A stretch of 64,000 nucleotides of DNA from IMG/VR virus record IMGVR_UViG_3300025137_005088, positions 3,066-67,065 of that record. The stretch is one strand, 5' to 3'. Made by a program: the position numbers and the translations under genes. The notes under the pieces are model-generated. The model searched no databases. It saw nothing but the letters and a program-made list of their open reading frames with translations, and was not told the origin of the DNA. This document shows positions 4,130 to 18,134 of the stretch, piece after piece; the first letter of the stretch is position 1; the number at the start of each line of letters is the position of its first letter. The DNA is from a virus.

Positions 4130-5212
4130 CTATGTAAATTGTTCAGCAAAGGGATCAAATTCTGTTCCGCACTTCATAGCACATACACCTAATTTTCCTT
4201 GCTTTACACTGGGTAAATTCCAACTATTTTCAATATTATTTAACAATGATCCTTGCATAACTGTGTGTAGATCATTGTTTATTACATCAATTCCCTCTTT
4301 CCCGCCGGCGAGATCAATATGTTCCCACACTTGTTCTATACGATAATCTTTGTGCCACCACTTGTACATACGACCAGCAACCCAACAACAAGGCATTAAT
4401 AATCCTTCTGCCGTAATAAAGATTGATTTTTCTTCAGCTACTTTGCATTTTATATCACAACTATCATAATATTCACGCATACTTCCATAAGTTTTTTCTA
4501 TTTCTTTTTGTTTTAATAGTGCTAGGTTTTGATTGCTTAATTGTTTGGGCTTTTCTAATAGCTGTGTTTCAATACCTTTTCTATTTTTTGCCTGGTGCGT
4601 GTCTTTCTTTTGACTATTAGCATTAAAGAATCTGCCTGACTTTTTCTTTTGAAAACGTTCTACACCCCATGATTTAGCAAGTGCTTCAGCTTCATCAACC
4701 TGATGTTCATTATGTCCAAATATAATGTAGTCCCAACGTGCTCTACCGCCAGCATCAACGAATGCTCGCATGTTGCGTTCTACTATATCCCATACAACAT
4801 TTTGCCTATACAGATGATTAGTGTCGCTAAGACCGTCAACTGAGAATATAACGGTACCTTTCTTTCCAATTGTTTTAGCAAGTGCTTGCCACCATTTAAC
4901 ATCTTTTGCTCCAGCGTTTGTGTTCATACTTAGCCACATATCTTTATTGTGACTTCTAAAATATTCAAATACTTCCAGCGTATCCTTGGCTACTATAGGA
5001 TCGCCCAGGTTACCACACATGTACATGGTGTTTAATTGTTTAATAAAGTCAGGTGTAAAGATCGCTTGACAGTCTTGTAAACTTAATTCACTATTATCTA
5101 TGTGGCGGTTGTCTACACCACCATTTTCATTTCTATCACACATTGGACATGCCGCCTGACACTTTTGCGTAATTTCCAAATGCACTGATCTAATATCTTC
5201 ATAGCTATACAT
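4130..5212 (-). CDS. radical SAM protein with C-terminal SPASM/twitch domain
   Basis: CQAACPMC, GNLGDP, NTNAG, FSVDG; C-terminal KC...LMPCC...CAMKC. Confidence 0.88.
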   Translation of the reverse strand: MYSYEDIRSVHLEITQKCQAACPMCDRNENGGVDNRHIDNSELSLQDCQAIFTPDFIKQLNTMYMCGNLGDPIVAKDTLEVFEYFRSHNKDMWLSMNTNAGAKDVKWWQALAKTIGKKGTVIFSVDGLSDTNHLYRQNVVWDIVERNMRAFVDAGGRARWDYIIFGHNEHQVDEAEALAKSWGVERFQKKKSGRFFNANSQKKDTHQAKNRKGIETQLLEKPKQLSNQNLALLKQKEIEKTYGSMREYYDSCDIKCKVAEEKSIFITAEGLLMPCCWVAGRMYKWWHKDYRIEQVWEHIDLAGGKEGIDVINNDLHTVMQGSLLNNIENSWNLPSVKQGKLGVCAMKCGTEFDPFAEQFT

Positions 5213-5429
5213 CTAATATCAGTTTTACATCCTTGCCAGGACCTACACGACTGGGCAGGTCTCCGTATGTATTTACATACCATTCAATCACTGCACGGTA
5301 CCATAGTTGACTGTTGTGATGTGCTTGTTTGTTGAATTGATGAATATTGTTGTTGGTTGCCGCCATAGCACTCAATGCCCTAGCACTTTCTATTTGTAGA
5401 TCTCTCAGTTTTAGATCGTCTAAATTCAT
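5205..5429 (-). CDS. hypothetical protein (74 aa)
   Basis: Tiles between neighbours with short overlaps; no recognisable motif. Confidence 0.7.
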   Translation of the reverse strand: MNLDDLKLRDLQIESARALSAMAATNNNIHQFNKQAHHNSQLWYRAVIEWYVNTYGDLPSRVGPGKDVKLILDV

Positions 5430-6457
5430 TTCTTTCCAATCAACATAAACCTATTATAAAGTTGCGTATCCAATTCACCTTCATAGTATATTGTACGCAT
5501 TGGATATTTCTTTTTTGCTTCTTTAACGTTTTTTACACAATTAATATGTTGTGGATTGCTAAAATAATCATTTGTTTGTAAACACACTAAAGTATCCTTA
5601 GGCAAACGCTCAAACCAAGTTTCGTTCATGTGTTCACAACTGGTGTTTATAACTAGGTCAGGCTGAACCCAAATTTCTACGTTGTTGCCTTCCATATTTT
5701 TGGTTCCTACTATAAAGCTAGCTTCATCGTCGTAGGTAATATCATCAACATCTTGCCATACACTCTTAAACTGCCACTGGTTATTAGTTTGTATATAGTT
5801 AAAATCATCTGCCATTTGTATGCACTGAACATCTTTTTCAAGACTTAAATATTTTTTAATATCAAAATTTTGAAAAAATAACTGTGCAACAGTAGCATAC
5901 CAGCCTCCGTATTGTACTACTGTGCCTAACTTAGGAGGGTGTGCTATTCCTGTTTGTTCTGTTACAATTTTTTTAAGTTCATCTACCATCCATAACTTGC
6001 TACACATTTGTCCTCTGCTGAAATGCTCATTCAGACTTGCCTGTGTTTCCCATTTAATGCACCAACTGCTGATTCTTCTAATATATTCGTCGTCGATGCA
6101 GTGTGCGATATAACGAGCTATCTTTCTATGCGTGACATATTTCCAGCCTATATGATGTGACATTAGTATGTTAATAAATTCTTCACTGAATTCGATTCGT
6201 CCTCTGTTTATTTCACCAACTATTAATCTTTTTATTTTCCAAATATTACCATGTAATACTGCTTTTTTAATATTCATAAACATATCAAGTTGAGGATGAT
6301 CAATATGTGTAAGATATTCTTCAATTCCGTGTATCCAAAAGAAGTCTAACGTGGGTTTGTATATTATTAATTGTTCCCCGTCTTCACCTTTAATTACCTT
6401 TTCTTCACCTATTAGGAGTTTACCGTCTTCGTTTATTTCGTCAAGTTGCGGCATCAA
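5426..6457 (-). CDS. putative class I SAM-dependent methyltransferase-like protein with N-terminal extension
   Basis: VVQYGGWYA glycine loop, acidic residue after the next strand (SLEKD), DLVINTSCEH. Confidence 0.6.
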   Translation of the reverse strand: MMPQLDEINEDGKLLIGEEKVIKGEDGEQLIIYKPTLDFFWIHGIEEYLTHIDHPQLDMFMNIKKAVLHGNIWKIKRLIVGEINRGRIEFSEEFINILMSHHIGWKYVTHRKIARYIAHCIDDEYIRRISSWCIKWETQASLNEHFSRGQMCSKLWMVDELKKIVTEQTGIAHPPKLGTVVQYGGWYATVAQLFFQNFDIKKYLSLEKDVQCIQMADDFNYIQTNNQWQFKSVWQDVDDITYDDEASFIVGTKNMEGNNVEIWVQPDLVINTSCEHMNETWFERLPKDTLVCLQTNDYFSNPQHINCVKNVKEAKKKYPMRTIYYEGELDTQLYNRFMLIGKK

Positions 6458-7145
6458 ATGTCTCCTTTAACCATTCAAAATCATTAATAAGATTTAATGT
6501 TTTTGCATTATTTTTATATGCTCGACCAAAGTCAGCGCCTTGCTTTGCTCCTAGTATTGCGTATTCACCGTTCTGTCTCGTATCGCCTTTGCTTTGCCAT
6601 ACCTTTAATCTGTACTCATTGTCAGTATTATCACCGTGTTCAATGACAGCACTGGCTAGTTTAGTACATTCTCTAAATGCACTGCGCCATGCATTAAAAG
6701 GATCTGTATTAAATGCTGTAATATTACTCACTTGAAACTTGGGCACAAATGGACAACCTATACTTGTTGTCATATCTACATTCCAATCCTTTGCTTCTAA
6801 TAGTGCTTTGCGTGGGAACAGCTTTGCTCCGCCATATCCATACAATAGATCATTTACTGGATTTTGACTACGCCATACAAACACACAGTCACTTTCATAC
6901 ACTCCGGGCCAATGTTCTTTATTATGTCTCGGTGTAAACTTAAAATTAAACTGTTCGTCTATAATAGCATCAGCATCAATTACATAAAAGTTTCTCGTTT
7001 CTGCTAGTTTAGCCGCGGCTTTGTGTGCCGCAAAAATGCCTTTAACACCCTGTACACGCTTGGCGAGGGGTGCGAACAGTTGTAGTAATTCAAAGTTGTC
7101 ATCAGCATATGGCTCATGATAGCTAATCTGAATAACATCTAACAA
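6441..7145 (-). CDS. GT-A fold glycosyltransferase-like protein
   Basis: ISYHEP, AAHKAAA, FYVIDADA (DxD), YGYGGAKL; paralogous to 29334..30311. Confidence 0.7.
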   Translation of the reverse strand: MLDVIQISYHEPYADDNFELLQLFAPLAKRVQGVKGIFAAHKAAAKLAETRNFYVIDADAIIDEQFNFKFTPRHNKEHWPGVYESDCVFVWRSQNPVNDLLYGYGGAKLFPRKALLEAKDWNVDMTTSIGCPFVPKFQVSNITAFNTDPFNAWRSAFRECTKLASAVIEHGDNTDNEYRLKVWQSKGDTRQNGEYAILGAKQGADFGRAYKNNAKTLNLINDFEWLKETFDAAT

Positions 7146-7168
7146 ATTAAATTCTCCATATATAGTTT

Positions 7169-7196
7169 ATTATACACGTTAATTGCAAAAAGTCAA
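7169..7196 (-). promoter_or_regulatory. sigma70-like promoter
   Basis: Minus strand reads TTGACT-N16-TATAAT, then a GGAG RBS before the TTG start at 7145. Confidence 0.65.
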
Positions 7197-7310
7197 TTAC
7201 TCATATATAAAAGGATCTTTGTCCTTTAGTTCTTTCATTTTCTTTTTACGCCATTTGTACTCTTTGTATTTGGTCCAAGGTAAAAGAATAAAATCGATTA
7301 TTGTTTGCAT
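7197..7310 (-). CDS. small basic protein (37 aa) ending DPFIYE
   Basis: Below the ORF-track cutoff; hand translation MQTIIDFILLPWTKYKEYKWRKKKMKELKDKDPFIYE with AGGAG RBS; fills the intergenic gap. Confidence 0.75.
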   Translation of the reverse strand: MQTIIDFILLPWTKYKEYKWRKKKMKELKDKDPFIYE

Positions 7311-8275
7311 AGTTGCTCCTTTATATATTCTATAGTATAGATTAATCCCAGTCGTCTATCAACAGTGGGACACCATCTTAAAACTTGACTAGCCAGCAAT
7401 ACCTCTGGTTTACGCCTATTAGGATCGTCTACCGCACTGTCTTGATATACTATTTCACTGCTACTACCAGTTAGTTCTATTATTTCTTCAGCTAGCTGTA
7501 ACAGCGTTACTTCATCTGGGTTGCCTATGTTAATTGGGCCTGCATGTCCTGAGTTCATTAAACGTCTCAGTGCCGTTGCTGTGTCTGAAACATAACAAAA
7601 GCTTCTGGTCTGACTTCCGTCGCCATGCATAGTAAGTGGTTCATTTTGTAGTGCTTGTGTAATAAAATTACTAACAGCTCTGCCATCTGTGAGACTCATA
7701 TACGGACCGTATGTGTTGAATATTCTAGCAATACAAGTATCAGCACTGCTGATATTACACATGGTTTCTGCTACACGCTTGCCTTCGTCATAACAAGCAC
7801 GTGGGCCTAGTGTGTTTACATTACCCCAATACGTTTCTTCTTGCGGATGCTTTAGTGGGTCACCGTATACTTCGCTGGTACTGGCTTGTAACATTCTGGC
7901 TCCAGCTTGTTTACTAATGTTTAACATGTTGCGAACACCATCTATATTGGTCATTAGTGTATACCACGGATCTGTTTGATAGTGTACAGGACTAGCTGGG
8001 CAAGCCAAATTATATATTTGTTTAAGAGGATCAAACATGCCCATTGGCTGAGGCCACTCATAACCGTCTCCTATACTGTTGAGAAGATTATCTGTTACAT
8101 CACGTTGTATAAAATAAAAATTATTTCTTCCTCTAAATTGTGCTAAATTAGCGGCACTGCCTGTATAGAAGTTGTCTAGTGCTACTACTGTTTCGCCATG
8201 GGCTAACAGTTGTTTACACAATTCAGTTCCTATTAATCCTGCGGCGCCTGTAACCATTACTGTCATATGTACCAA
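7298..8275 (-). CDS. UDP-glucuronate decarboxylase (UDP-xylose synthase)-like extended SDR; probable start 8266
   Basis: TGAAGLIG, LACPASPVHYQ, ASTSEVYGDP, CYDEGKRVAE, RIFNTYGP, GDGSQTRSFCYV. Confidence 0.88.
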   Translation of the reverse strand: MVHMTVMVTGAAGLIGTELCKQLLAHGETVVALDNFYTGSAANLAQFRGRNNFYFIQRDVTDNLLNSIGDGYEWPQPMGMFDPLKQIYNLACPASPVHYQTDPWYTLMTNIDGVRNMLNISKQAGARMLQASTSEVYGDPLKHPQEETYWGNVNTLGPRACYDEGKRVAETMCNISSADTCIARIFNTYGPYMSLTDGRAVSNFITQALQNEPLTMHGDGSQTRSFCYVSDTATALRRLMNSGHAGPINIGNPDEVTLLQLAEEIIELTGSSSEIVYQDSAVDDPNRRKPEVLLASQVLRWCPTVDRRLGLIYTIEYIKEQLCKQ

Positions 8276-9033
8276 TATCCTAACTTTTTGAGACTAGCTA
8301 TTTTAGCACTGTCTCCTAAATATTCTTTTGTATTATCCCAATCCTCATATGCATAATTTCCAGTAACATGCCATATTGCCCAATCATTTGCTTGTACGAA
8401 GTTGTGTCCAGTGGGAAATTGTATAGGATCTAATAGGTCAACTTGTGTATTTGTTAAATGTTTAATATGAGTATTAACAAATAATTGACAAGTACTTGTG
8501 TAACCGTTAGCATACAAGTAATCTGTATTACACATACTTATGTTAGTTTCAGTTGCTCGCATTCCGTACATACCTGTACCACAGTTATAATCACCATGCG
8601 TCTTCAAAGGATAACCTAACCATGCATATTGTTTTACACTTTGACATAGTTGATCTGCACCCAGGGCAAAGTGTTGTTGTACTGTTTGAGTATAATCTTT
8701 TTGTGCTACACAGTCAACATCAGTATAAAACCAATTTTTGCCTTGTTGCATAATCTGTTGACCAATAATAAATTTATATACAAACACATGATGACTGCCT
8801 TGTGGTATGTGTACTGTGGGAACACGTGACTGCATTGCGTGATAGCTTTGCAAGTCTAATGCTACATACAACATGGGTATACCCAACTGTTTACAACTCT
8901 CTGTCCAATTCATTGTTAGTGGTAATACCGTTTCGTCTCCCATACACCAAAACACTGTGTCTGATTCAACACTATCGCAATAATCTCTAATTGATTCTAG
9001 CACTAGAGTCTCCCTGATAAAATGCTTGCACAC
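8263..9033 (-). CDS. nucleotide-diphospho-sugar transferase (GT77-like); probable GTG start 9003
   Basis: LYVALD, WFYTDVDCV (DxD), CGTGMYGMRAT, LLDPIQFPTG, AIWH. Confidence 0.7.
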   Translation of the reverse strand: MCKHFIRETLVLESIRDYCDSVESDTVFWCMGDETVLPLTMNWTESCKQLGIPMLYVALDLQSYHAMQSRVPTVHIPQGSHHVFVYKFIIGQQIMQQGKNWFYTDVDCVAQKDYTQTVQQHFALGADQLCQSVKQYAWLGYPLKTHGDYNCGTGMYGMRATETNISMCNTDYLYANGYTSTCQLFVNTHIKHLTNTQVDLLDPIQFPTGHNFVQANDWAIWHVTGNYAYEDWDNTKEYLGDSAKIASLKKLGYWYI

Positions 9034-11326
9034 TAACAGTATTCATACTGTGTGCTTTTGCTGTAATAGGACCTAGTGTAGCATCAATACCAAAATCACT
9101 GTCACTCACTGACTGGTTAATAATTAAACTTATTATATGTTCATAACTGTCCATAAACTCTGTATCGCCCGGTTGTATATCGATTGGTTTGCCTTTTGTA
9201 ATCCAATCATTTACTATTTGTTCCAGTGTTGTGTCCTCTGTTACTTGACCAATAATATATCTATCATTATTGTCCCTATCCAAGAACCCTGCTTCTCTGC
9301 AAAGATAAACTAACCCATAAGCATCTACTACAAGATCCACTTGCGGAAAGCCTTTGGGTAACATATTGTGTTCAGTAATGCAATGCATAGTGGGTGCATC
9401 TATACCTTTACTGAGTGCGTTTAGTGCATAACCATAATCAATATGCAGGCGGTTTAAGTTCTCGCTTTTGCGTCTTTGTTCTACTTGTTCAAATATACGC
9501 TTCAGCTTTGTTCTATCTCCGAATGTACTAGCATCAGTTGGCTCTCTAAAGTTTTCTCTCAGTGTAATAAAGTCAAGTTGGTTACCACTTGCTACATTAA
9601 TTTCTTCAATTAAATCTAATACTTCCAACAGGTCTTCCTCTAGTCCTGGAAGTATAACATAATTAAATCCGAATCGCAACTGTTTATTATTGAGCTTTTT
9701 ATATTTTAAAAAGTCAATGGCATTTTGTTTTACTCTAGTAAAGCCTTGTTTGTGTTTGGTTACTTGTGTGTACACATCCTGATTACTTCCGTATAAACTT
9801 ATACGCAATACTTCTAATTTAAACAAGTCTTGGTTAGCTTCAACAAACCGTTCAGTGAGCATAAATCCGTTTGTATACAAACTAAACTTAAATCCTCTTG
9901 CATGTCCAGCACTAATTAATTTCATTAAGTCAGGATTGGTAAGTGTTTCTAATCCTCCACTTAAATAAAATCTATACGGATCGTCTTGTGGACTGGTATT
10001 AATTAAATTTAATAAATGTGGAGTAGCTTCACGCAACTTGGACTTTTTGTAAGAGGCATTTGTATCCATGTTACGACCACAAAACGTACACCAAAACATA
10101 CAGCTTTGTCCAATATGCAATCCTATTCTATGTGGATATCCGTATTCATTTTTTAATACTTTTTGTATTGTACCACTTTGCATCAAGGGTATAATTGTAT
10201 TTTTCCAATATTGACTGTTGCGTATGTCTTCAATAATACACTGTTGTACAAAATCACTACTGCGTAATATTGAATTTATATCTAATAATTTGTGTTGACT
10301 TACCAGTAATTTTTGTTGTATAGTTTGTTGTGTAACAAACGGAGTAGCACTGTAACAATCAATTACTTGTAAACAATGTTCTAACATTTGATATAGCTGT
10401 GGATCATATCTACTGTGTGCATAGCCTGCTGTTATGATACTCTGTGCTAGGTATAATCCAAGTATTTGTACACGATCAAAGTCTGGACTGTGTCTTATAA
10501 TATCTAAATGCTGTTCATACAGTTGTTGTACACTGGTACAAATAGTTTCAGTTATCCAACGAGTGTTGTCTGCGGTGTTGTACAATACAACACCATTTAC
10601 AAATGCGTCCAGTTGTCTATCTAAACTTTTGCCATCATCTTGAGCAAATTCATATATTTTATTATCTATCGTGATTATTCTTTTGTTAGCACTGTCACGT
10701 TCAAAGTCCACACTAACTATAGTTCCTGCAAAGTCCAATAACCAAAATACACCCCGTGGTGTTTGTGTTGTTTGCAATACTTGACAACTGTCTTTTTTAA
10801 TTATTTTTCTTAATATTGTTAATACATGTGGACCTATATCTTCTAGTACACTAATAGTAGGATCACTCACATACAGTTTACCATGTCTTTCAGTATTGTT
10901 TTCACTGTTCCATACGATATTAATTGTTTTAGGTTGTTGATCAGTTTTATCTGCAATTTCTTGTATACGATTGCTGTACTCTAATTCTAAACCAACTACC
11001 AGTTTACAATCGTTTTGTTTTGCAAGTTCTACCAAATGGTCATGCTGTTCAAGTGAGCGAACAAACGGTTTTTCTACAAGTATGTGTCTATGATCAGATA
11101 AAAGTTCTACTGCACTGGCATAATGATCGTCTGGACTATTAGCAATCCAAATATGATCACTGTCTAAACTAAGCAAGTTATCCACACTGCCAATTTGATT
11201 ATTATGAGTATAAAACTGTGTAGTATACTCATTTTTATTTGCAACACGATCTATTATTTGAGCCCAGCGACCGCCGCCTACTATTCCGAGGGTACGCACA
11301 CTTCTACTCCGTACTGCTTGGTCCAA
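8987..11326 (-). CDS. fusion of Gfo/Idh/MocA oxidoreductase and DesII-like radical SAM (NDP-4-amino-4,6-dideoxyglucose ammonia-lyase); probable GTG start 11299
   Basis: N-terminal GIVGGGRWA, HILVEKP, DIGPH; C-terminal CMFWCTFCGR, SGGLETLTNP, YTNGF, LDFITLRE, DYGYAL, VYLCREAGF, which match DesII-family motifs. Confidence 0.85.
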   Translation of the reverse strand: MDQAVRSRSVRTLGIVGGGRWAQIIDRVANKNEYTTQFYTHNNQIGSVDNLLSLDSDHIWIANSPDDHYASAVELLSDHRHILVEKPFVRSLEQHDHLVELAKQNDCKLVVGLELEYSNRIQEIADKTDQQPKTINIVWNSENNTERHGKLYVSDPTISVLEDIGPHVLTILRKIIKKDSCQVLQTTQTPRGVFWLLDFAGTIVSVDFERDSANKRIITIDNKIYEFAQDDGKSLDRQLDAFVNGVVLYNTADNTRWITETICTSVQQLYEQHLDIIRHSPDFDRVQILGLYLAQSIITAGYAHSRYDPQLYQMLEHCLQVIDCYSATPFVTQQTIQQKLLVSQHKLLDINSILRSSDFVQQCIIEDIRNSQYWKNTIIPLMQSGTIQKVLKNEYGYPHRIGLHIGQSCMFWCTFCGRNMDTNASYKKSKLREATPHLLNLINTSPQDDPYRFYLSGGLETLTNPDLMKLISAGHARGFKFSLYTNGFMLTERFVEANQDLFKLEVLRISLYGSNQDVYTQVTKHKQGFTRVKQNAIDFLKYKKLNNKQLRFGFNYVILPGLEEDLLEVLDLIEEINVASGNQLDFITLRENFREPTDASTFGDRTKLKRIFEQVEQRRKSENLNRLHIDYGYALNALSKGIDAPTMHCITEHNMLPKGFPQVDLVVDAYGLVYLCREAGFLDRDNNDRYIIGQVTEDTTLEQIVNDWITKGKPIDIQPGDTEFMDSYEHIISLIINQSVSDSDFGIDATLGPITAKAHSMNTVSVQAFYQGDSSARIN

Positions 11327-12768
11327 CGATCAGCATCTTCTCTTGTGTTAACTAAAGGTTCTCCCTTTATGTTTAAACTTGTATTCAATAGCATAGGGCA
11401 ACCTGTGTCAGCATACCAACGCTCTAGCAGTGTTCTTAGTCCAGGTGAACTTTGTTTAGTTACAGTTTGTACTCTACTTGTATTATCATAATGTATAACG
11501 GCAGGAAATAGGTCAGGATATTTGCATACACTCACGTACTGCATAAAGTCTCCAGTCATTCCTTCAAAGTATTCACTTGCATGTTCTGCAAGGATTGCTG
11601 GTGCAAAGGGTCTGAAACTTTCTCTGTGTTTAATTTTGTTGACCAAGTCCTTAACTCCAGGTCCACGGGGATCAGCAAGAATACTACGGTTGCCAAGAGC
11701 CCTAGGACCAAACTCAGCACGACCTGAGGCCACGGCAGTGATCTTGTTGGAGTGTAACTTTTTGAGTATGCTCTCAGTTGGATATGTGCCTTCAATGTTG
11801 TGTCCTAAGTATACATGCGGCATCTCTAAGAATTGTTTTGTTTGTGCTAGTACACAACCTATTGCATTGCCAGCATCGCCTGGATTAGCTGGTACATGCA
11901 CATTGGTAAAAAACTCTCCTGCCAGTGGATTAGCAACACAATTTAATGCACAACCGCCTGCTATTATTATGTTACTATACTTAGCATCTGTCATAACGTA
12001 TGCACTGCGACATAGCTCTGTGAATATTTCTTCGTATATACGCTGAACTGCGGCGGCAATGTCAGCATAGTCTTGTGGTGTGTTTAGGTCAGGTCTCCAA
12101 TCCAAACAACCTCTGTGGCAGTTGCGTTTGAATATAGTAAATGGATGATAACTTGTTGGTATTTTTTCAATAAAGTCACGTTTGATATCTGCATACAGTC
12201 TGTCTTTGTCGCCTATAGCTGACATACCCATGAGTATGTATTCATGTTCTTGTGGCTTTAGTCCTATACGCTGTGTCATAGCACTGTACCATATACCTAT
12301 ACTGTCTGGATAACTTTGACTCCATAGTTTTTTAAGTTTACCTTTTTCACCTGTCCATATGCTAACAGTATCCCATTCGCCAATTGAATCAACTACTAAT
12401 ATTACTGCACGATCATAAGGACCTGTGTAATATGCATAGGCTGAGTGGCTCAAATGATGACTAGTTGTAGTGCAACTAGGTGCCTTATTGTGGAATTTGC
12501 GTATATATGTAGTAGGTGATTCCTTACCCAGTAGTGCGTATTGCTTTGCGTACAACTGACGAGTCTTTTTAAGCCACGGACGCTCATAATAGCATATTCT
12601 GTCTGGTTTACCGTACTGTAATGCTTCATCGATTATGGATTGATTAAGATGTTTATCATTCTTAACTCTACTGTAACGTTCTGCATGGCCCGCAAACTCT
12701 AGTCCAGTGTCTGTAAACACTGCTAAACTAGCATCATGTGCCATGCCTGTCCAACCCCAAGTAATCAA
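11281..12768 (-). CDS. O-carbamoyltransferase (CmcH/NodU/TobZ family)
   Basis: HDASLA, ERYSRVKND, HHLSHSA, GGCALNC, EFGPRALGNRS, RESFRPFAP, LLNTSLN. Confidence 0.95.
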   Translation of the reverse strand: MITWGWTGMAHDASLAVFTDTGLEFAGHAERYSRVKNDKHLNQSIIDEALQYGKPDRICYYERPWLKKTRQLYAKQYALLGKESPTTYIRKFHNKAPSCTTTSHHLSHSAYAYYTGPYDRAVILVVDSIGEWDTVSIWTGEKGKLKKLWSQSYPDSIGIWYSAMTQRIGLKPQEHEYILMGMSAIGDKDRLYADIKRDFIEKIPTSYHPFTIFKRNCHRGCLDWRPDLNTPQDYADIAAAVQRIYEEIFTELCRSAYVMTDAKYSNIIIAGGCALNCVANPLAGEFFTNVHVPANPGDAGNAIGCVLAQTKQFLEMPHVYLGHNIEGTYPTESILKKLHSNKITAVASGRAEFGPRALGNRSILADPRGPGVKDLVNKIKHRESFRPFAPAILAEHASEYFEGMTGDFMQYVSVCKYPDLFPAVIHYDNTSRVQTVTKQSSPGLRTLLERWYADTGCPMLLNTSLNIKGEPLVNTREDADRWTKQYGVEVCVPSE

Positions 12769-13293
12769 TTAACCGCCTCCTTGAAACATTAAAGGTGCAT
12801 CTCGTGGACAGCTACTCACCAGTAAAGAGAACAACGGATCAGGTGCTTGTTGCGGATCTATATTTTCTAATTTTACAAACTTTTCTTGTATCATGAACGC
12901 ATCTTTTTCTAACTGTTGTCTACATGTAACTTCTTCATATGTACCATCATGGTATTGTAGGAAATGTACTAGTTCATGTACTAGCACTACTTCAAAAAAT
13001 CTATCCTCAACCATATATTGTGTTGGCGAGTTCCGAATGTGTACAGTATTAGTATCATCGTTATAATAACCTGCTACATCACACTCCGGTCTTGGTTCTG
13101 CATATACACCTGCACATATTTCTTTTTGTGTATTGATTATAATGTCAGGATAGGCCCAGCCTCCATATACATAATCAGTATGCTCTTCAATAAAACCTAT
13201 CATATCTGGAACAAGTGCTTGTAGATAATTTACTCGTGCATCTGCTAGCGCCATTGTAGGAAATAACAAAGTAAACAAAAATACTCTAATCAT
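12769..13293 (-). CDS. exported HExxH zincin-like protein
   Basis: N-terminal signal-like MIRVFLFTLLFPTMALA; VAGYY; LVHELVHFLQ; downstream Glu (LEKDA). Confidence 0.65.
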   Translation of the reverse strand: MIRVFLFTLLFPTMALADARVNYLQALVPDMIGFIEEHTDYVYGGWAYPDIIINTQKEICAGVYAEPRPECDVAGYYNDDTNTVHIRNSPTQYMVEDRFFEVVLVHELVHFLQYHDGTYEEVTCRQQLEKDAFMIQEKFVKLENIDPQQAPDPLFSLLVSSCPRDAPLMFQGGG

Positions 13294-13308
13294 AATCCAA
13301 TACCCGCA

Positions 13309-13698
13309 TTATAGTTTACCTTCTTCTCTCATTTTAGCACGAATCTTTGTCGCACTAATGTCGTGTACTGCTTTGCCTAAGTCATGTTCCGTAAATGAAT
13401 ATCCTACACCTCTACCATAACTAATATCAACAATATTAGGTACTAACATAATTTCAAAGTCGTCTCCTATAACATATCCTTTGACATATAAATGTCCTGC
13501 TATATCATTAGTTACTTGATCAAAGTCAAAAGGGTTATCTAAATTACCCATTCCGGCATCAGCACCTTGTACATCTCTGACCATAATCATTACTTGTCCT
13601 GTAATTTCAAGTGCCTTTTCAAAAAGTTTTGAATGCCCTTCGTGCCACGGTTGCCATCTGCCTAACATTTGTACTGTTGGTTTTTTATAATCAAACAT
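13309..13698 (-). CDS. HxGH nucleotidyltransferase (cytidylyltransferase/ATP-sulfurylase-like fold)
   Basis: GRWQPWHEGH, NPF, ISATKIR. Confidence 0.85.
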   Translation of the reverse strand: MFDYKKPTVQMLGRWQPWHEGHSKLFEKALEITGQVMIMVRDVQGADAGMGNLDNPFDFDQVTNDIAGHLYVKGYVIGDDFEIMLVPNIVDISYGRGVGYSFTEHDLGKAVHDISATKIRAKMREEGKL

Positions 13699-14116
13699 TG
13701 TTATTATCCCTGAAACGTTTTAATACTGGTTCTAATTGTTGTGCTGTATCACTAAACCATTCGCTAACATGATAGTCACATTCAGGTGGGTTTTGAAATA
13801 TTTTATTAGTATCCTCAAAACGTCCTTCTTTTATAGTATCCATCCAAACTGTGTAGTCTGGTGCAAATTCTATACGGGCTTGTTCGGTGGGGCACACAAA
13901 GTCAGCAACTGCAATTTTGCCAGCCATCTCTACTCCATCAGCCAAGTGTCGCATACGTTGTGCTTGTCTAATTCTTCCTTCGGGTGTAAAGTCCCAATCG
14001 TCATATTTTTTTCTAACTGTATCGGCGTTTATGTGTACTCCTTCAATTAGTTCTGCAAATGGTTTTGCTAGTGTAGTTTTTCCACTACCCGGCAGACCAA
14101 ATATTAATATTTTCAT
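13691..14116 (-). CDS. adenylyl-sulfate kinase-like P-loop kinase
   Basis: GLPGSGKTTLA, NADTVR, DFTPEGR, DFVCP. Confidence 0.8.
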   Translation of the reverse strand: MKILIFGLPGSGKTTLAKPFAELIEGVHINADTVRKKYDDWDFTPEGRIRQAQRMRHLADGVEMAGKIAVADFVCPTEQARIEFAPDYTVWMDTIKEGRFEDTNKIFQNPPECDYHVSEWFSDTAQQLEPVLKRFRDNNNV

Positions 14117-14627
14117 CTAGTGTATCCTTTATTAATTTATACGGTATTCCAACACTCTCTAATAATCGTATTAGTCTTATCTCACTACCTTTCATTATTG
14201 TGTCCATTGAGTTATTATCTACAAATCTTTCTAAGTAATCTATCTGTTCATTTGTTAAATTCATATCCCATCTTTTTTGTATAGTATCGCCTGTTTTATC
14301 TTTAAACACACCACTGGCCCACAACAAATCATTCTCTACTCCATAGTTGCAGTAGTAGAATTCAAAATTCTCTTGCTCAAGACGCCACAAATGTTCTTTC
14401 CAGTCAAACTTGTAAAAACAAATGTCATTGGCATTTAGACCTTGGACAACAATGTGTTTATACTTGTTTATTATATTGTCTTTATGCAACTGTGTCAAGA
14501 TATCATAATAGTTGATATAGTTTCCGTAATCCAAAGTATATACAGTATATTCATGTTCTTTGGGCAACGTGCTTAGCCATGTTGATCCCGGTTTGCTTTC
14601 ACCGTTGCCAATTACTAACACTTTCAT
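14085..14627 (-). CDS. hypothetical protein, possibly degenerate SGNH-like
   Basis: N-terminal VLVIGNGES and HIVVQ spacing echo the two neighbouring SGNH-like ORFs; no C-terminal catalytic His seen. Confidence 0.5.
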   Translation of the reverse strand: MKVLVIGNGESKPGSTWLSTLPKEHEYTVYTLDYGNYINYYDILTQLHKDNIINKYKHIVVQGLNANDICFYKFDWKEHLWRLEQENFEFYYCNYGVENDLLWASGVFKDKTGDTIQKRWDMNLTNEQIDYLERFVDNNSMDTIMKGSEIRLIRLLESVGIPYKLIKDTLDENINIWSAG

Positions 14628-15469
14628 CTTAGTTTTTCCAATGCTTTGCGTACAGCCTTTCCAACTTTTTTATTACCTGCCTTATTAAAATGTCCGATAA
14701 AAGTATCACTACCGTCTCTGCTTATTTTAGGATCTATAGGAGCAAATATATGATATTTTTTATTAAGGAACAGGTCCATACTACCTTTGCCTACTCCCCA
14801 AGGATAAGGAACATCTAAACGTGTTCCATGTTCAAATTGAGGCGTAACTTGTTCAACTTCATTTACCCATCTAAGGTAATACAATGGTGTCTGAGTTTCT
14901 CTGCATCTTTCGTCTATAAGTGTAGCACAACTTTGTACCACATGCTTGTTAGTCATACCTTGGAACATGTGTTTTCGCCACTCAGTTTCATTATTCATGT
15001 TGCCGCCGAAATCGCCTTTGCCGTTAGCACTGATAAAATTAAAATATTTGGCAGTACCTTTACCCTGATACATATCAATATTTTCTGCTCGCACGTCATA
15101 CTCATGCCAAAATCTGTCACCTATATGTCCTGGTTCATTCCATGTGCATCTAGGTTCATATGTTAATTGTAATAATACATAGTCAAAGTCTTTAAGACGA
15201 TTTTTATTGTAGTAGTGTTCAAGCACTGTAGCATGTTGTACTATGCCTCCGCCACTAACTGTGTAAAGTGTATGATAGTTTTTTGGATCTAAACTTTCAA
15301 CCCAGCCGCCGTTTACATCAAGTGTTTCTCTACCTAATCCGTTGTCTACTTTCTTTGTAGTGCCGTCGGATTGTAGCACATCACTGTACATAATATAGGT
15401 TGGATCGTATGTGTAGCTTCCTGCACTAAAGCTACAACCAAATACCAATACATTTTCATTGTAGTCCAT
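14624..15469 (-). CDS. SGNH/GDSL-fold protein
   Basis: VFGCSFSAG, SGGG, VLLQLTYEPR, GHFNKAGN. Confidence 0.65.
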   Translation of the reverse strand: MDYNENVLVFGCSFSAGSYTYDPTYIMYSDVLQSDGTTKKVDNGLGRETLDVNGGWVESLDPKNYHTLYTVSGGGIVQHATVLEHYYNKNRLKDFDYVLLQLTYEPRCTWNEPGHIGDRFWHEYDVRAENIDMYQGKGTAKYFNFISANGKGDFGGNMNNETEWRKHMFQGMTNKHVVQSCATLIDERCRETQTPLYYLRWVNEVEQVTPQFEHGTRLDVPYPWGVGKGSMDLFLNKKYHIFAPIDPKISRDGSDTFIGHFNKAGNKKVGKAVRKALEKLR

Positions 15470-16115
15470 CGCCTAAACCTTTTTTGATCATCTGTCCTAA
15501 AACAGTGTTTCCTTTTCTTGTAAAGTGTAAATCTGGATTATGTAAATCCTTTTTGTTCCATAGTTGTTCAATTGCGGGCTTTACATCTAAGTACTCAATA
15601 TATTTATATGGGTACTTAACTCCAGTAAAGCTGTAGCTGTATGTGGGCAATCCTGTTTGTTGTGCTAGATGATCCAAGTGACTTGCACATGCTTTAGTTA
15701 GTATATCCCAACTGTTTTCCATTTGCCAAAACCAATCACTCATTCCTTGTTGCCATTTGAAATTATATTGGTTAGCAATTTTGTTTTGCACTTTAGGTAA
15801 TCCTCCTAGTCTATTATGAAATGCATTATCTATTTTCCATGCAAAAACATTGAGTCTAGATGTATAATACTCAAGTTGTTTCTGTATTACAATTCTAGGT
15901 TCCCATGTCTCTTGTATAATTATAGCACTATATTTTTTTATGTCAATTGATTCTAAACATGCACAGTAGCTCATAATGCCACCTCCAGGATGTGCATAAA
16001 CTTGATATGGTTGATCAAGTTCATCATACCAGCAATAGTCTGTGTGTAGTGTTTCTGTTGTGTTGTCGTAGCTGTACCAGCCCATACTAAAACTACAACC
16101 TAATATTAATATCAT
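15456..16115 (-). CDS. SGNH/GDSL-fold protein
   Basis: ILGCSFSMG, PGGG, IIIQETWEPR, DLHFTRKGN; paralogue of 14624..15469. Confidence 0.68.
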   Translation of the reverse strand: MILILGCSFSMGWYSYDNTTETLHTDYCWYDELDQPYQVYAHPGGGIMSYCACLESIDIKKYSAIIIQETWEPRIVIQKQLEYYTSRLNVFAWKIDNAFHNRLGGLPKVQNKIANQYNFKWQQGMSDWFWQMENSWDILTKACASHLDHLAQQTGLPTYSYSFTGVKYPYKYIEYLDVKPAIEQLWNKKDLHNPDLHFTRKGNTVLGQMIKKGLGDGLQ

Positions 16116-17386
16116 GCGTTAGCCTGTTCAACCAGTGTTTTCATATTTCCAAAGTTTACACTTTGATGGTGTGCATTTGCTACTCTAGGATCACGTAGCA
16201 CTTGTAAAAAGTTTTCGTATTCAGGATGATCGGGTTTCCAACAAGCTCTAACTTCAAAGTCAATCATGTGTCCCCAATCAACTATAAGTGTAAATGTTGC
16301 TCTACTATACTTTCCAGGTCCTGACCAACGATCTGTTACCATTTGTATAAAGTCTGGTATCTCTTTATAGTTACATGTTTGTACAACAAAGTTATGACTC
16401 ATTGCTCCGCTGAGTAGATTACTTGTATTGTAACTATTTTTAGTTTTTGTGAAACTAGGTATTTGACTGTAAACATAATCTACATTACTGACTAGTTGAT
16501 CCCAGTGACCTCCTAGTCTTGTTTCTTTTTCATATGTTTCTTTTTTACCAGCATCGAAACTAAAAACAATTTGTTTAATTTGTTTATGAACTTTGCTTAT
16601 ACTATCCCATACCTTTGGAGTAAGCATTACACCGTTTGTTTGAAAATTAAGCCATGTGTTTGGTCTGTCAGTAAGATCCATTTCTTGTAGACGTTCTCTA
16701 AATATCTTACTACCAAAAGGATCACCTCCGCCTGTTATCCATATATCAAATTGATAATCTTTAGGCGCCTTCATTATTTCATCAAATAACTTATCTGTTA
16801 GTGATTTTCTTTGATCATATTTTTCACCCTTAGAATGAATAATTTTACTATTTCTACAGCTAGGACAATATAAGTTACAACTTTCATCTGTACCAACTTG
16901 TATATCGTGTGGCAAGTAATTGGCTTGTGTGCTACGGTTTTTCAATGACTCAACAATAATTGGATCTACATTATATTTTTGAGGATTGTCTATTACATTA
17001 GTTATTAGTGGCAATGCTGTTTCTGCATACTGAATTTTAGGACAAGTGTTGTGTTTGCAATGGGGCCAGTTTGCTCCGTCATACAACTGATTACGAATTT
17101 CTTGTGCTTTAGGTCCATTCCATATCTCTTCCATTGTGCTTACATTTAGATCGCCTATGACTACTGGTAGCCAAAAAGGACAACACATGAAAACTGCACC
17201 CATATTATTAATTTCTGCTCTATTAAAAAAATAACTGCAATATCTTCCGTTAAGATCTTTTTTAGTACCCGCAATAAGACTATCGTCTTGATAGAAACTT
17301 TTAGGTTTCCATCCTTTAGGTTGACCCTTAGGAACAATATCAGGTGTTGAAGACTGCACTGCATCTGCTACAGAGATCGATGTCAC
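16112..17386 (-). CDS. N-terminal twitch-domain radical SAM protein
   Basis: YCSYFF...FMCC...HCKHNTC, then SCNLYCPSC, TGGGDPF, QTNG. Confidence 0.9.
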   Translation of the reverse strand: MTSISVADAVQSSTPDIVPKGQPKGWKPKSFYQDDSLIAGTKKDLNGRYCSYFFNRAEINNMGAVFMCCPFWLPVVIGDLNVSTMEEIWNGPKAQEIRNQLYDGANWPHCKHNTCPKIQYAETALPLITNVIDNPQKYNVDPIIVESLKNRSTQANYLPHDIQVGTDESCNLYCPSCRNSKIIHSKGEKYDQRKSLTDKLFDEIMKAPKDYQFDIWITGGGDPFGSKIFRERLQEMDLTDRPNTWLNFQTNGVMLTPKVWDSISKVHKQIKQIVFSFDAGKKETYEKETRLGGHWDQLVSNVDYVYSQIPSFTKTKNSYNTSNLLSGAMSHNFVVQTCNYKEIPDFIQMVTDRWSGPGKYSRATFTLIVDWGHMIDFEVRACWKPDHPEYENFLQVLRDPRVANAHHQSVNFGNMKTLVEQANA

Positions 17387-18134
17387 AGCGTTTTCCTTTT
17401 GCTAATAATAATTTGTATTTGTTATATTGGCTATTATTCCATACGTCTACAGGACTTGTATTCATATCAACTTTGCCCACAGGATTACGTTTACCAAAGT
17501 CCCACGGACACAAATACATTGTACCGTCAATATATACAAATGCTTCATTTTCTACTTTTTTGCAGGGTAAGTTTAAACTTTCAGTTTGGTCTTCCCATGG
17601 ATGCGAGTACAGTTCAGTAATTTTAGCACATCCTGGTCTTACATTATTCCAATAATCTAAAAACATTTCCTGTTCCGCTTTAGTATCTGGCAAGTTAATC
17701 ATTCTCACCTCACAATCTATCTCAGGGTGATTGTCTACAAATCTTGTAACATTTTCATATACTCTGTCAAAACTTATACCTCTAGTTTCGTCAAAAGTTT
17801 TTTTACTAAAACCATCAACACTAAAACGTATTATATCAACAAACGGAGCAATCTTTCGTTCTGTTTTTATAGTCATAGGTTCGCCGTTACTATTAAGTTC
17901 AACTATAGCAGTAGGATCTTCTTTAATATATCTAGCTATATCAGGCAAACGTGTATCTACTAGAGGTTCGCCTAGTCCAAATGGTCTGTAGACAATACCC
18001 ATATTTCTAGTATCATCTATTATTTTATAGATCAGATCTATATCCATATGCTCTTTAGGGACTAAGTGATTAGGACAAAACCAACAAGTTGCATTACAAA
18101 ATGTTGTTGTTTCTAGTTGTAGGTATTTAAACAT
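17340..18134 (-). CDS. radical SAM protein with C-terminal twitch domain (BtrN-like architecture)
   Basis: CNATCWFC, GLGEP, NSNG, FSVDG; C-terminal PC...YLCPWD...LCSRC. Confidence 0.9.
   Translation of the reverse strand: MFKYLQLETTTFCNATCWFCPNHLVPKEHMDIDLIYKIIDDTRNMGIVYRPFGLGEPLVDTRLPDIARYIKEDPTAIVELNSNGEPMTIKTERKIAPFVDIIRFSVDGFSKKTFDETRGISFDRVYENVTRFVDNHPEIDCEVRMINLPDTKAEQEMFLDYWNNVRPGCAKITELYSHPWEDQTESLNLPCKKVENEAFVYIDGTMYLCPWDFGKRNPVGKVDMNTSPVDVWNNSQYNKYKLLLAKGKRCDIDLCSRCSAVFNT

What the first reader, a model, noticed from the sequence alone, without database searches (positions are those of the whole stretch)
8987..11326. Gfo/Idh/MocA reductase fused to a DesII-type radical SAM deaminase in a phage
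Seen: one uninterrupted ORF carrying both motif sets. Known: DesII converts TDP-4-amino-4,6-dideoxyglucose to TDP-3-keto-4,6-dideoxyglucose in desosamine synthesis, and NDP-sugar 3-ketoreductases such as KijD10 and SpnN belong to the Gfo/Idh/MocA family. Inference: the fusion makes an NDP-4,6-dideoxyhexose (chalcose-like if later O-methylated) for the adjacent transferase. No DesI/DegT-type aminotransferase is in the window, so the substrate would come from the host or from elsewhere in the genome.
Basis: partly seen in the sequence, partly recalled or inferred. Interest (0 to 1): 0.8.

Follow-up and report, generated by a model that had tools for sequence, protein, structure and literature searches.

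The report
Phage reductase–radical SAM deoxysugar fusion enzyme
A marine T4-like phage carries one gene that joins a sugar reductase to a DesII-type radical enzyme, probably a two-step machine for removing an oxygen or amino group from a nucleotide sugar; the fusion is real and recurs in other phages and in bacteria, but has not been studied.

Summary
ORF 8987-11326(-) encodes an N-terminal Gfo/Idh/MocA domain and a complete DesII-like radical SAM enzyme (DesII 8hzv: E 1e-77, fold TM 0.91). Every DesII residue named in the structure paper is kept except the β6 pair D323/Y324, which reads N592/F593.

The fusion is not an assembly artefact. Contigs from three other runs bridge the domain junction without indels. 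55 of 120 listed homologue clusters carry both domains. Fused forms are scattered over the DesII tree. Where the two parts are unfused, a small Gfo gene often sits beside the DesII-like gene.

A DesII-type elimination followed by C3 ketoreduction fits. No locus with a Gfo partner has the two-aminotransferase (desosamine-like) cassette seen in other marine phages.

The proposed TDP-4-amino-4,6-dideoxyglucose substrate has no support in the context:
- The neighbouring SDR is a UDP-glucuronate decarboxylase, not a 4,6-dehydratase.
- No sugar nucleotidyltransferase or DegT gene occurs here or in four related phage fragments.
- A HisC-like aminotransferase and a BtrN-like radical SAM gene are syntenic in all six phage loci and could supply the amine.

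This is a new variant of a known kind. Interest is moderate to high.

The parts
8987..11326 (-). Maximal ORF (779 codons from TTG) of the Gfo/Idh/MocA-DesII-like fusion. The likely CDS is 8987-11299, from GTG (770 aa).
   Evidence: homologue lengths of 765-781 aa
10472..11296 (-). Gfo/Idh/MocA oxidoreductase domain, residues about 11-285: a Rossmann fold with GGGRW and EKP (E85 K86 P87), then a beta-sheet domain with D163-x3-H167.
   Evidence: Pfam; invariant residues; model and Foldseek; profile against PDB
10142..10471 (-). Helical N-terminal domain of the DesII-like part, residues about 286-395.
   Evidence: TIGR04426 match starts at residue 310; helices 285-391 in the model; DesII is described as having an N-terminal domain of six helices (PMC11434129)
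9452..10141 (-). Radical SAM core, residues about 396-625, with the GGE motif G457-E460 and the ribose motif R508/S510/Y512.
10079..10102 (-). CX3CX2C cluster-binding motif (C409, C413, C416).
8990..9451 (-). C-terminal domain of the DesII-like part, residues about 626-779. It holds E678 and D726, the counterparts of DesII E408 and D456.
   Evidence: alignment mapped to residues named in PMC11434129; D726 invariant and E678 at least 90% conserved in 19 fusions
11281..12768 (-). NodU/NolO-like carbamoyltransferase, immediately upstream, overlapping the fusion's start.
   Evidence: present in 4 of 6 loci of the phage clade
8263..9033 (-). Nucleotide-diphospho-sugar transferase (Pfam Nucleotid_trans), immediately downstream.
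   Evidence: syntenic in 6 of 6 loci of the phage clade
7298..8275 (-). UDP-glucuronate decarboxylase (UXS)-like SDR.
   Evidence: human UXS1 4gll, E 2.3e-92, 313 bits; syntenic in 6 of 6 loci at 57-100% identity
18113..19213 (-). HisC-like class I/II PLP aminotransferase, a candidate supplier of the amino sugar.
   Evidence: syntenic in 6 of 6 phage-clade loci and present in 5 Pelagibacteraceae loci
17340..18134 (-). 264-aa radical SAM protein with a SPASM/twitch domain. Its best solved relative is the radical SAM dehydrogenase BtrN.
   Evidence: BtrN 4m7s, E 1.2e-12; syntenic in 6 of 6 phage-clade loci

Best explanation
The gene encodes a bifunctional nucleotide-sugar deoxygenation enzyme. 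The DesII-like radical SAM part abstracts the hydrogen at C3 of an NDP-sugar and eliminates the C4 substituent, giving an NDP-3-keto-4-deoxy sugar. The leaving group is most likely ammonia from a 4-amino sugar, possibly hydroxyl. The fused Gfo/Idh/MocA part then reduces the C3 ketone with NAD(P)H, so the product is an NDP-4-deoxy sugar for the glycosyltransferase encoded next to it.

Shown: both domains are intact with their catalytic residues, and the pairing of the two families recurs, fused or adjacent.

Inferred: the order of the two steps, the regiochemistry and the substrate.

From the conserved neighbours I infer that the sugar is UDP-linked and derived from UDP-glucuronate or UDP-xylose (UXS), not TDP-6-deoxyglucose. 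I also infer that the amine is installed by the BtrN-like radical SAM dehydrogenase and the HisC-like aminotransferase encoded about 6 kb upstream. These two are directly adjacent to the fusion in two related phages.
For: DesII-like part:
- E 1.3e-77 to DesII. TIGR04426 covers 434 of 468 model positions.
- The AF2 model (pLDDT 90.5, pTM 0.89) superposes on 8hzv with target TM 0.91-0.92, rmsd 2.2-2.6 Å and 32% identity.
- The counterparts of C141/C145/C148, G187-E190, R238/S240/Y242, E408 and D456 are present. In 19 fusions all are invariant except E678, which is conserved at 90% or more. D456A is reported inactive in DesII.

Gfo part:
- EKP and H167 are invariant in the 19 fusions of A1 and in the 19 N-domain and GFOb rows of A2. 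In the 63 fusions of A3, E85, P87 and H167 are invariant and K86 is conserved at 90% or more.
- The closest solved relatives act at C3 of sugars: GnnA at E 2.4e-24; GnnA, GenD2, KanD2 and WlbA by fold.

Coupling of the two families:
- 55 of 120 listed homologue clusters carry both Pfam domains.
- 15 of the 109 loci in which I found a DesII-like ORF are fused. A further 19 have a small Gfo gene of the same subfamily within 8 kb.
- Fused rows are not one clade: AU p 2.5e-32, and 5-6 changes of state on a 47-row tree.

Order of steps: marine phage loci with an unfused DesII-like gene carry the cassette SDR-DegT-DES-DegT, like DesI/DesII/DesV. 0 of 40 Gfo-linked loci have two DegT genes, against 9 of 50 others. 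So the Gfo partner stands where the 3-aminotransferase would.

Precedent for a radical SAM lyase with a reductase partner: AprD4/AprD3 (PMC5461906, passages).

Context: UXS, a BtrN-like radical SAM gene, a HisC-like aminotransferase and a glycosyltransferase are syntenic in 6 of 6 phage-clade loci. In L003 and L004 they are contiguous with the fusion.
Against: - No biochemical data exist for any fused member.
- The TIGR04426 score of 345.8 is below the 450-bit equivalog cut-off.
- 23 of 40 Gfo-linked loci have no aminotransferase of either kind within 8 kb. This weakens the idea that an amine is the general leaving group.
- HisC-family enzymes are not known to me as nucleotide-sugar aminotransferases.
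- A human-UXS-like enzyme normally releases UDP-xylose, not the 4-keto intermediate.
- The closest solved Gfo relatives (GnnA, GenD2, KanD2, WlbA) are dehydrogenases that feed aminotransferases, not ketoreductases.
- The locus counts are not phylogenetically independent. My ORF calling is unreliable in high-GC loci: the Streptomyces DesII proxies showed no DegT gene nearby.
- UXS and the glycosyltransferase could form a xylosylation module that has nothing to do with the fusion.
Confidence: 0.5

Rival explanations
1. The Gfo domain acts first, as a GnnA/WlbA-type C3 dehydrogenase. The 3-keto sugar is transaminated by the HisC-like enzyme. The DesII-like domain then removes that 3-amino group by abstracting a neighbouring carbinol hydrogen, giving a 3-deoxy keto sugar. 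The fusion would then hold two non-consecutive steps.
For: The best solved relative of the N-domain is GnnA, UDP-GlcNAc 3-dehydrogenase (E 2.4e-24 over residues 4-255). By fold, GnnA, GenD2, KanD2 and WlbA rank high. By my recall, each of these pairs with an aminotransferase. An aminotransferase is syntenic in 6 of 6 phage-clade loci.
Against: 23 of 40 Gfo-linked loci lack any nearby aminotransferase. A further ketoreductase would be needed and none is evident. The mutual exclusion of Gfo with the second, DesV-like DegT gene is better explained if Gfo acts after the lyase. The counterparts of DesII E408 and D456 are kept, which suggests the same substrate geometry as DesII.
Confidence: 0.17
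2. One reading: TDP-4-amino-4,6-dideoxy-D-glucose is converted to TDP-3-keto-4,6-dideoxyglucose and then to TDP-4,6-dideoxyhexose (chalcose-like). The substrate would come from the host or from an unsequenced part of the phage genome.
For: The DesII family assignment holds. The window's domain shares a clade with Streptomyces DesII proxies. The record is only 19% complete by CheckV, so further genes may exist.
Against: There is no 4,6-dehydratase: the neighbouring SDR is UXS-like, with dTDP-glucose 4,6-dehydratases matching only at E 1e-15 to 1e-20. No NTP_transferase or DegT gene occurs in this record or in four related phage records. Similarity to KijD10 is weak and confined to the NAD-binding part.
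Confidence: 0.12
3. The DesII-like domain is a radical SAM diol dehydratase of AprD4 type, or a dehydrogenase, acting on a plain 3,4-diol sugar such as UDP-xylose. No amine is involved. The Gfo domain is its reductase partner, as AprD3 is for AprD4.
For: AprD4/AprD3 is a described pair of a radical SAM dehydratase and an NADPH-dependent reductase (PMC5461906). DesII oxidises TDP-quinovose and partly dehydrates TDP-fucose (PMC11434129). 23 of 40 Gfo-linked loci have no aminotransferase nearby. UXS would supply UDP-xylose.
Against: In this phage clade an aminotransferase and a BtrN-like dehydrogenase are always syntenic. For DesII itself, dehydration of the 4-hydroxy substrate is computed to be much less favourable than dehydrogenation. 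This reading overlaps the best explanation in everything except the leaving group.
Confidence: 0.15

Closest known systems
DesII (TDP-4-amino-4,6-dideoxy-D-glucose deaminase, Streptomyces venezuelae; PDB 8HZV/8HZY; NCBIfam TIGR04426)
   Same: Same three-domain fold (target TM 0.91, 32% identity). It has the CX3CX2C, GGE and ribose motifs and the counterparts of E408 and D456. No conserved extra cysteines for an auxiliary cluster appear in the alignments.
   Different: A Gfo/Idh/MocA domain is fused to the N terminus. The score is below the equivalog cut-off. It occurs in a T4-like marine phage rather than an actinomycete antibiotic cluster. Its neighbours are UXS, a HisC-like aminotransferase and a BtrN-like radical SAM gene, not DesI, DesIV and DesV. 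The counterparts of the β6 pair D323/Y324 are N592/F593.
AprD4/AprD3 (radical SAM diol dehydratase with an NADPH-dependent reductase partner, apramycin C3' deoxygenation)
   Same: The logic is the same: a radical SAM lyase makes a keto-deoxy sugar and a nicotinamide-dependent reductase completes the deoxygenation (PMC5461906, passages).
   Different: AprD4 and AprD3 are two separate proteins that act on an aminoglycoside pseudodisaccharide. AprD4 did not appear among the sequence matches to the query in PDB. The family of AprD3 was not checked here.
GnnA (UDP-GlcNAc 3-dehydrogenase, PDB 7BVJ/7BVK) and related Gfo/Idh/MocA sugar C3 dehydrogenases (WlbA/WbpB, GenD2, KanD2)
   Same: It is the best solved relative of the N-domain by profile (E 2.4e-24, residues 4-255) and among the best by fold. 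The EKP lysine and the histidine are shared. All of these enzymes carry out redox chemistry at C3 of a sugar.
   Different: They are stand-alone enzymes of 300-340 aa that work in the oxidative direction ahead of an aminotransferase. Identity is only 14-18% in the fold alignments.
KijD10 / SpnN-type NDP-hexose 3-ketoreductases (PDB 3RBV)
   Same: Same superfamily, and the same reaction type as the one proposed here.
   Different: The match is only E 2.4e-10 over residues 22-128, the NAD-binding part. About 40 other Gfo/Idh/MocA chains rank higher. There is no evidence of a specific relationship.
SDR-DegT-DesII-like-DegT cassettes in other marine phage contigs
   Same: They share the DesII family and the same kind of island, with a carbamoyltransferase and N-terminal-twitch radical SAM genes.
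   Different: There the DesII-like gene is unfused and flanked by DegT aminotransferases, a desosamine-like layout. Those sequences lie on the other side of the tree.

Membership tests
DesII family (TIGR04426, radical SAM NDP-sugar ammonia-lyase) | CX3CX2C motif binding a single [4Fe-4S] cluster, plus the GGE and ribose SAM-binding motifs | tested here: met
   C409/C413/C416, G457-E460 and R508/S510/Y512 align to DesII C141/C145/C148, G187-E190 and R238/S240/Y242. They are invariant in 19 fusions.
DesII family (TIGR04426, radical SAM NDP-sugar ammonia-lyase) | Active-site acid residues E408 and D456 (D456A is inactive) | tested here: met
   E678 and D726 align to them. D726 is invariant in 63 fusions, and E678 is conserved at 90% or more in 19.
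DesII family (TIGR04426, radical SAM NDP-sugar ammonia-lyase) | Score at or above NCBIfam's equivalog cut-off (450 bits) | tested here: not met
   345.8 bits. The next radical SAM family scores 47.7 bits. It is therefore a family member, but not a curated equivalog.
DesII family (TIGR04426, radical SAM NDP-sugar ammonia-lyase) | Three-domain fold: N-terminal helical domain, radical SAM core, C-terminal hairpin and helices | tested here: met
   Foldseek to 8hzv: target TM 0.91-0.92, rmsd 2.2-2.6 Å, about 480 columns, on a model with pLDDT 90.5.
DesII family (TIGR04426, radical SAM NDP-sugar ammonia-lyase) | Groups with characterised DesII in a tree of the domain | tested here: met
   In the 47-row IQ-TREE 'quick' tree, the window's clade and two Streptomyces proxies (493 and 562 bits to 8hzv) share a 35-row clade with SH-aLRT 89. 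Support is moderate, and DesII itself was not in the tree.
DesII family (TIGR04426, radical SAM NDP-sugar ammonia-lyase) | Pathway context: TDP-glucose synthase, 4,6-dehydratase and DesI-type 4-aminotransferase | tested here: not met
   No DegT or NTP_transferase gene in the record or in four related records. The neighbouring SDR is UXS-like. All records are fragments.
DesII family (TIGR04426, radical SAM NDP-sugar ammonia-lyase) | Deamination of TDP-4-amino-4,6-dideoxy-D-glucose | not testable with these tools
   Requires an anaerobic enzyme assay.
Gfo/Idh/MocA oxidoreductases | N-terminal Rossmann fold with a glycine-rich loop, the EKP motif and a downstream D/H pair, followed by an alpha/beta sheet domain | tested here: met
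   Pfam PF01408 at 41.2 bits against a cut-off of 24. G17/G19, E85-K86-P87 and D163/H167 are conserved. The model has strands 134-226. The fold matches biliverdin reductase and GnnA with target TM 0.67-0.70.
NDP-hexose 3-ketoreductases of KijD10/SpnN type | Closer to KijD10 than to other Gfo/Idh/MocA enzymes | tested here: not met
   3rbv matches at E 2.4e-10 over residues 22-128 only, against GnnA at 2.4e-24 over residues 4-255.

The most novel reading that the evidence does not exclude
The phage encodes a previously undescribed route to a UDP-4-deoxypentose or a related 4-deoxy sugar. UXS makes the pentose nucleotide. A BtrN-like radical SAM dehydrogenase and a HisC-type aminotransferase, a family not known to me to act on nucleotide sugars, install a C4 amine. 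The fused DesII-like/Gfo enzyme removes that amine and reduces the ketone. A GT77-like transferase and a carbamoyltransferase then place the sugar on a virion or host-surface acceptor. More broadly, DesII-type radical deoxygenation would be a common surface-glycan trait of Pelagibacteraceae and their phages, not a speciality of antibiotic pathways.
Probability: 0.2. Interest if true: 0.8.

Novelty: new variant of a known kind. Interest (0 to 1): 0.6.

Why it matters
To my knowledge, DesII has been characterised only in actinomycete macrolide sugar pathways. My searches found no paper on phage or marine homologues.

The family is rare: 53 representatives at E ≤ 1e-30 among 1.84 billion proteins. 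Here it recurs in marine phages, in genomes labelled Pelagibacteraceae, and in Acidobacteriota and other phyla. It has two alternative downstream partners, an aminotransferase or a Gfo reductase, and the Gfo partner has been fused or split repeatedly.

A natural fusion is a convenient object for enzymology. It gives one polypeptide for both steps and should trap the 3-keto intermediate, which I recall to be labile.

If the substrate is a UDP-pentose, the product would be a sugar class not yet described in phage or bacterioplankton glycans. That bears on phage-host recognition in the open ocean.

Tried and rejected
- tblastn of the protein against the INPHARED phage collection found nothing. 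megablast of 5000-15000 gave one 161-base match. The window's own record may be left out of that collection, so this says little.
- A PDB sequence search with the glycosyltransferase gave only chance-level hits.
- A scan for the T4 late-promoter word TATAAATA found 3 sites against 11 expected by chance. It gives no evidence on timing of expression.
- One RNA run (X16) yielded two short contigs on the gene, 9414-9656 and 10736-10943. They show presence in an RNA library but do not show transcription.
- Monophyly of the fused forms was tested and rejected. I named the group after seeing the tree.
- Paper searches: 'DesII'+'phage' gave 6 papers, and none of the 5 listed is relevant. 'DesII'+'marine' gave 24 papers, and none of the 12 listed is relevant. 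'chalcose'+'3-ketoreductase' gave 0. A badly framed six-term search told nothing. Two reviews by Ruszczycky and Liu are not held.
PDB does title 3rbv 'Sugar 3-ketoreductase'.
- The supplementary files of the DesII structure paper (docking poses, mutant data) could not be seen. They may name further substrate-binding residues.
- ORF-based neighbour counts in high-GC loci were judged unreliable and carry no weight.
Full report
**Observation.** The window has one open frame of 779 codons at 8987-11326 on the minus strand.
- Pfam finds a Gfo/Idh/MocA NAD-binding domain at residues 24-112 and a Radical_SAM domain at 405-573, both above their gathering scores.
- NCBIfam's DesII model TIGR04426 matches residues 310-746, model positions 26-459 of 468, at 345.8 bits. 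The next radical SAM family scores 47.7 bits. The curated equivalog cut-off of 450 is not reached.
- The solved DesII chains 8hzv and 8hzy match at E 1.3e-77 over residues 364-754.
- The frame starts with TTG inside the upstream gene. A GTG at 11299, 7 nt after GGAG, gives 770 aa, the length of the closest homologues.

**Is it an artefact?** No.
- Of 120 listed homologue clusters, 55 carry both Pfam domains. 23 of these are 53-97% identical over the full length.
- Contigs of three other sequencing runs cross the domain junction near 10470 with substitutions only: X2 9944-11361, X3 9644-11390, X4 9497-11188. No insertions, deletions or joints are listed. These are Logan contigs, not raw reads.

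**Is it a phage?** Yes.
- The record is an IMG/VR virus record of 67 kb, 19% complete by CheckV.
- The window holds a T4-type baseplate wedge (863 bits), a baseplate hub, a gp55-like late sigma factor, SbcC- and SbcD-like subunits, and a 3804-aa virion structural protein.

**The DesII-like part.** I read the whole main text of the DesII structure paper (PMC11434129). It names these residues:
- C141/C145/C148;
- the GGE motif G187-E190;
- the ribose motif R238/S240/Y242;
- the β6 residues D323/Y324;
- E408, the proposed general base, although the E408A and E408Q mutants stay active;
- D456, whose D456A mutant is inactive.

By the HMMER alignment these map to C409/C413/C416, G457-E460, R508/S510/Y512, N592/F593, E678 and D726. 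In an alignment of 19 fusion proteins all are invariant except E678 (at least 90%) and the β6 pair. D726 is also invariant in 63 fusions.

An AlphaFold2 model built on those 63 sequences has pLDDT 90.5 and pTM 0.89. Its C-terminal 480 or so residues superpose on DesII with target TM 0.91-0.92, rmsd 2.2-2.6 Å and 32% identity. The N-terminal helical domain of DesII is retained, at residues about 286-395.

**The Gfo part.**
- G17, G19, W21, H68, E85-K86-P87 and H167 are invariant across fused N-domains and the small stand-alone Gfo proteins encoded beside unfused DesII-like genes. D163 is invariant among the fusions.
- A profile of these N-domains finds GnnA first in PDB: 7bvj, E 2.4e-24, residues 4-255. 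The Foldseek listing titles this entry UDP-N-acetylglucosamine 3-dehydrogenase.
- KijD10, titled 'Sugar 3-ketoreductase' (3rbv), matches at E 2.4e-10 over the NAD-binding part only.
- By fold, the N-domain matches biliverdin reductase A, GnnA, GenD2, KanD2 and WlbA.

The domain is therefore an intact Gfo/Idh/MocA enzyme. It is nearest to enzymes that carry out redox chemistry at C3 of sugars, and it has no specific tie to the known 3-ketoreductases.

**Relatives and their contexts.** I fetched 48 viral and 65 genomic loci. I called ORFs, clustered the neighbours and named the main clusters with Pfam. A DesII-like ORF was recognised in 108 loci plus the window. Five loci (L074, L084, L106, L109, L111) were lost at this step. 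Four patterns stand out.

1. The window's own clade (window, L001-L004, L049) always has a HisC-like class I/II aminotransferase, a 264-aa radical SAM/SPASM protein, the fusion, a Nucleotid_trans glycosyltransferase and a UXS-like SDR (6 of 6). It never has a DegT gene (0 of 6). In L003 and L004 these five genes are contiguous.
2. Many other marine phage contigs carry an unfused DesII-like gene in the cassette SDR-DegT-DES-DegT, the layout of DesI/DesII/DesV. It lies in a similar island with a carbamoyltransferase and N-terminal-twitch radical SAM genes.
3. Loci labelled Pelagibacteraceae carry DAO-Gfo-DES. Five of them also have the HisC-like aminotransferase, and three of those five the 264-aa radical SAM gene.
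4. Acidobacteriaceae loci carry DES with WecG, a Bac_transf gene and a larger Gfo gene.

An HMM of the fusion's N-domain hits the small neighbouring Gfo proteins at E 1e-10 to 1e-31.

Among 90 loci with a full-length DesII-like gene, 40 are Gfo-linked (fused, or an HMM hit within 8 kb). Of these 40, none has two DegT genes, 6 have one, 11 have the class I/II aminotransferase and 23 have neither. Of the 50 loci without Gfo, 9 have two DegT genes, 10 have one and 31 have none. These counts are not independent events. In high-GC loci my ORF calls are poor: even the Streptomyces DesII proxies showed no DegT gene nearby.

**Trees.** Two trees of the DesII-like domain were built, a FastTree of 93 rows and an IQ-TREE 'quick' tree of 47 rows.
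- Both place the window in a six-row clade with support 100, then with L005.
- That group lies inside a 35-row clade (SH-aLRT 89). The clade holds all fused forms, the forms with a small Gfo neighbour, and two Streptomyces sequences that score 493 and 562 bits against DesII.
- The phage DegT-cassette forms lie on the other side.
- Fused rows do not form one clade: AU p 2.5e-32, with the group named after the tree was seen, and 5-6 changes of state. Fusion or fission has happened several times, which argues for a functional link between the two proteins.

**Substrate.**
- The SDR at 7298-8275 matches human UDP-glucuronate decarboxylase at E 2e-92 (313 bits). dTDP-glucose 4,6-dehydratases match only at E 1e-15 to 1e-20.
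- No DegT or NTP_transferase gene is found in this record or in four related phage records. All of these records are fragments.
- The best solved relative of the 264-aa radical SAM protein is BtrN (E 1.2e-12). By my recall, BtrN is a radical SAM dehydrogenase that makes a ketone for an aminotransferase.
- The aminotransferase is HisC-like: 138.5 bits on TIGR01141 against a cut-off of 276.55.

These neighbours suggest a UDP-pentose route rather than a TDP-6-deoxyhexose route. This step is inference.

**Mechanism.** The best-supported reading has two steps: a DesII-type radical elimination at C4, then C3 ketoreduction by the fused domain, giving a 4-deoxy nucleotide sugar for the adjacent transferase (confidence 0.5).
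- A precedent for a radical SAM lyase with a nicotinamide-dependent reductase partner is AprD4/AprD3 (PMC5461906, passages).
- Whether the leaving group is ammonia or hydroxyl is open. DesII itself oxidises the 4-hydroxy analogue and partly dehydrates its C4 epimer.
- The main rival reverses the order and makes the Gfo domain a GnnA-like dehydrogenase.

**Novelty.** The family is rare: 53 representatives at E ≤ 1e-30 among 1.84 billion proteins. The fusion already sits in public genomes under automatic names such as 'Gfo/Idh/MocA family oxidoreductase' and 'dTDP-4-amino-4,6-dideoxy-D-glucose ammonia-lyase'. My searches found no paper on it or on phage or marine DesII homologues (search listings only). 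I rate it a new variant of a known kind.

Noticed in passing
window 466-29331, minus strand: Ten further radical SAM ORFs lie within 30 kb: 466-1440, 1440-2711, 2708-4114, 4130-5212, 16112-17386, 17340-18134, 19131-20522, 24651-25688, 26681-27979 and 27979-29331. In five of them (1440-2711, 2708-4114, 16112-17386, 26681-27979, 27979-29331) the SPASM/twitch domain comes before the radical SAM core. 1440-2711 matches NCBIfam NF033640 'twitch domain-containing radical SAM protein' at 293.7 bits. This density of radical SAM genes in a phage is unusual. Their substrates are unknown.
   Followed up: partly
L006-L030 (viral contigs), e.g. L011 about 8900-12600: Other marine phage contigs, some on records of 262-345 kb, carry a desosamine-like cassette SDR-DegT-DesII-like-DegT. 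It sits next to a carbamoyltransferase, a roughly 430-1140-aa unknown protein and DUF2201/VWA genes. This suggests that phages make a 3-amino-3,4-dideoxy sugar.
   Followed up: partly
L009, L010, L012, L014, L031, L048 (viral contigs): Proteins of 573-624 aa beside the DesII-like gene combine a Gfo-like Rossmann start with an FAD-dependent oxidoreductase (DAO) part. In Pelagibacteraceae loci the same two functions are separate genes in the order DAO-Gfo-DES. The role of the DAO enzyme is unexplained.
   Followed up: no
L049 (contig of a genome labelled Gammaproteobacteria MAG): This 108-kb contig shares the whole island with the window, gene for gene, and its fusion protein is 72% identical. 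It is probably a phage contig binned into a MAG, or a prophage. This was not checked.
   Followed up: no
window 13309-14116, minus strand: A 129-aa cytidylyltransferase-like protein with an HxGH-type motif and a 141-aa P-loop kinase resembling APS kinase overlap by 8 nt. They may activate a small phosphorylated substrate. They are present in 4 of 6 loci of the phage clade.
   Followed up: no
window 20461-21126 and 23271-24104, minus strand: An FkbM-type methyltransferase and a weak sulfotransferase-like ORF lie in the same island. They could further decorate a glycan.
   Followed up: no
L078 9677-12515: In an Acidobacteriota MAG the Gfo part and the DesII-like part lie in two overlapping ORFs, 9677-11665 and 11400-12515. 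This is either a frameshifted fusion or a sequencing error.
   Followed up: no
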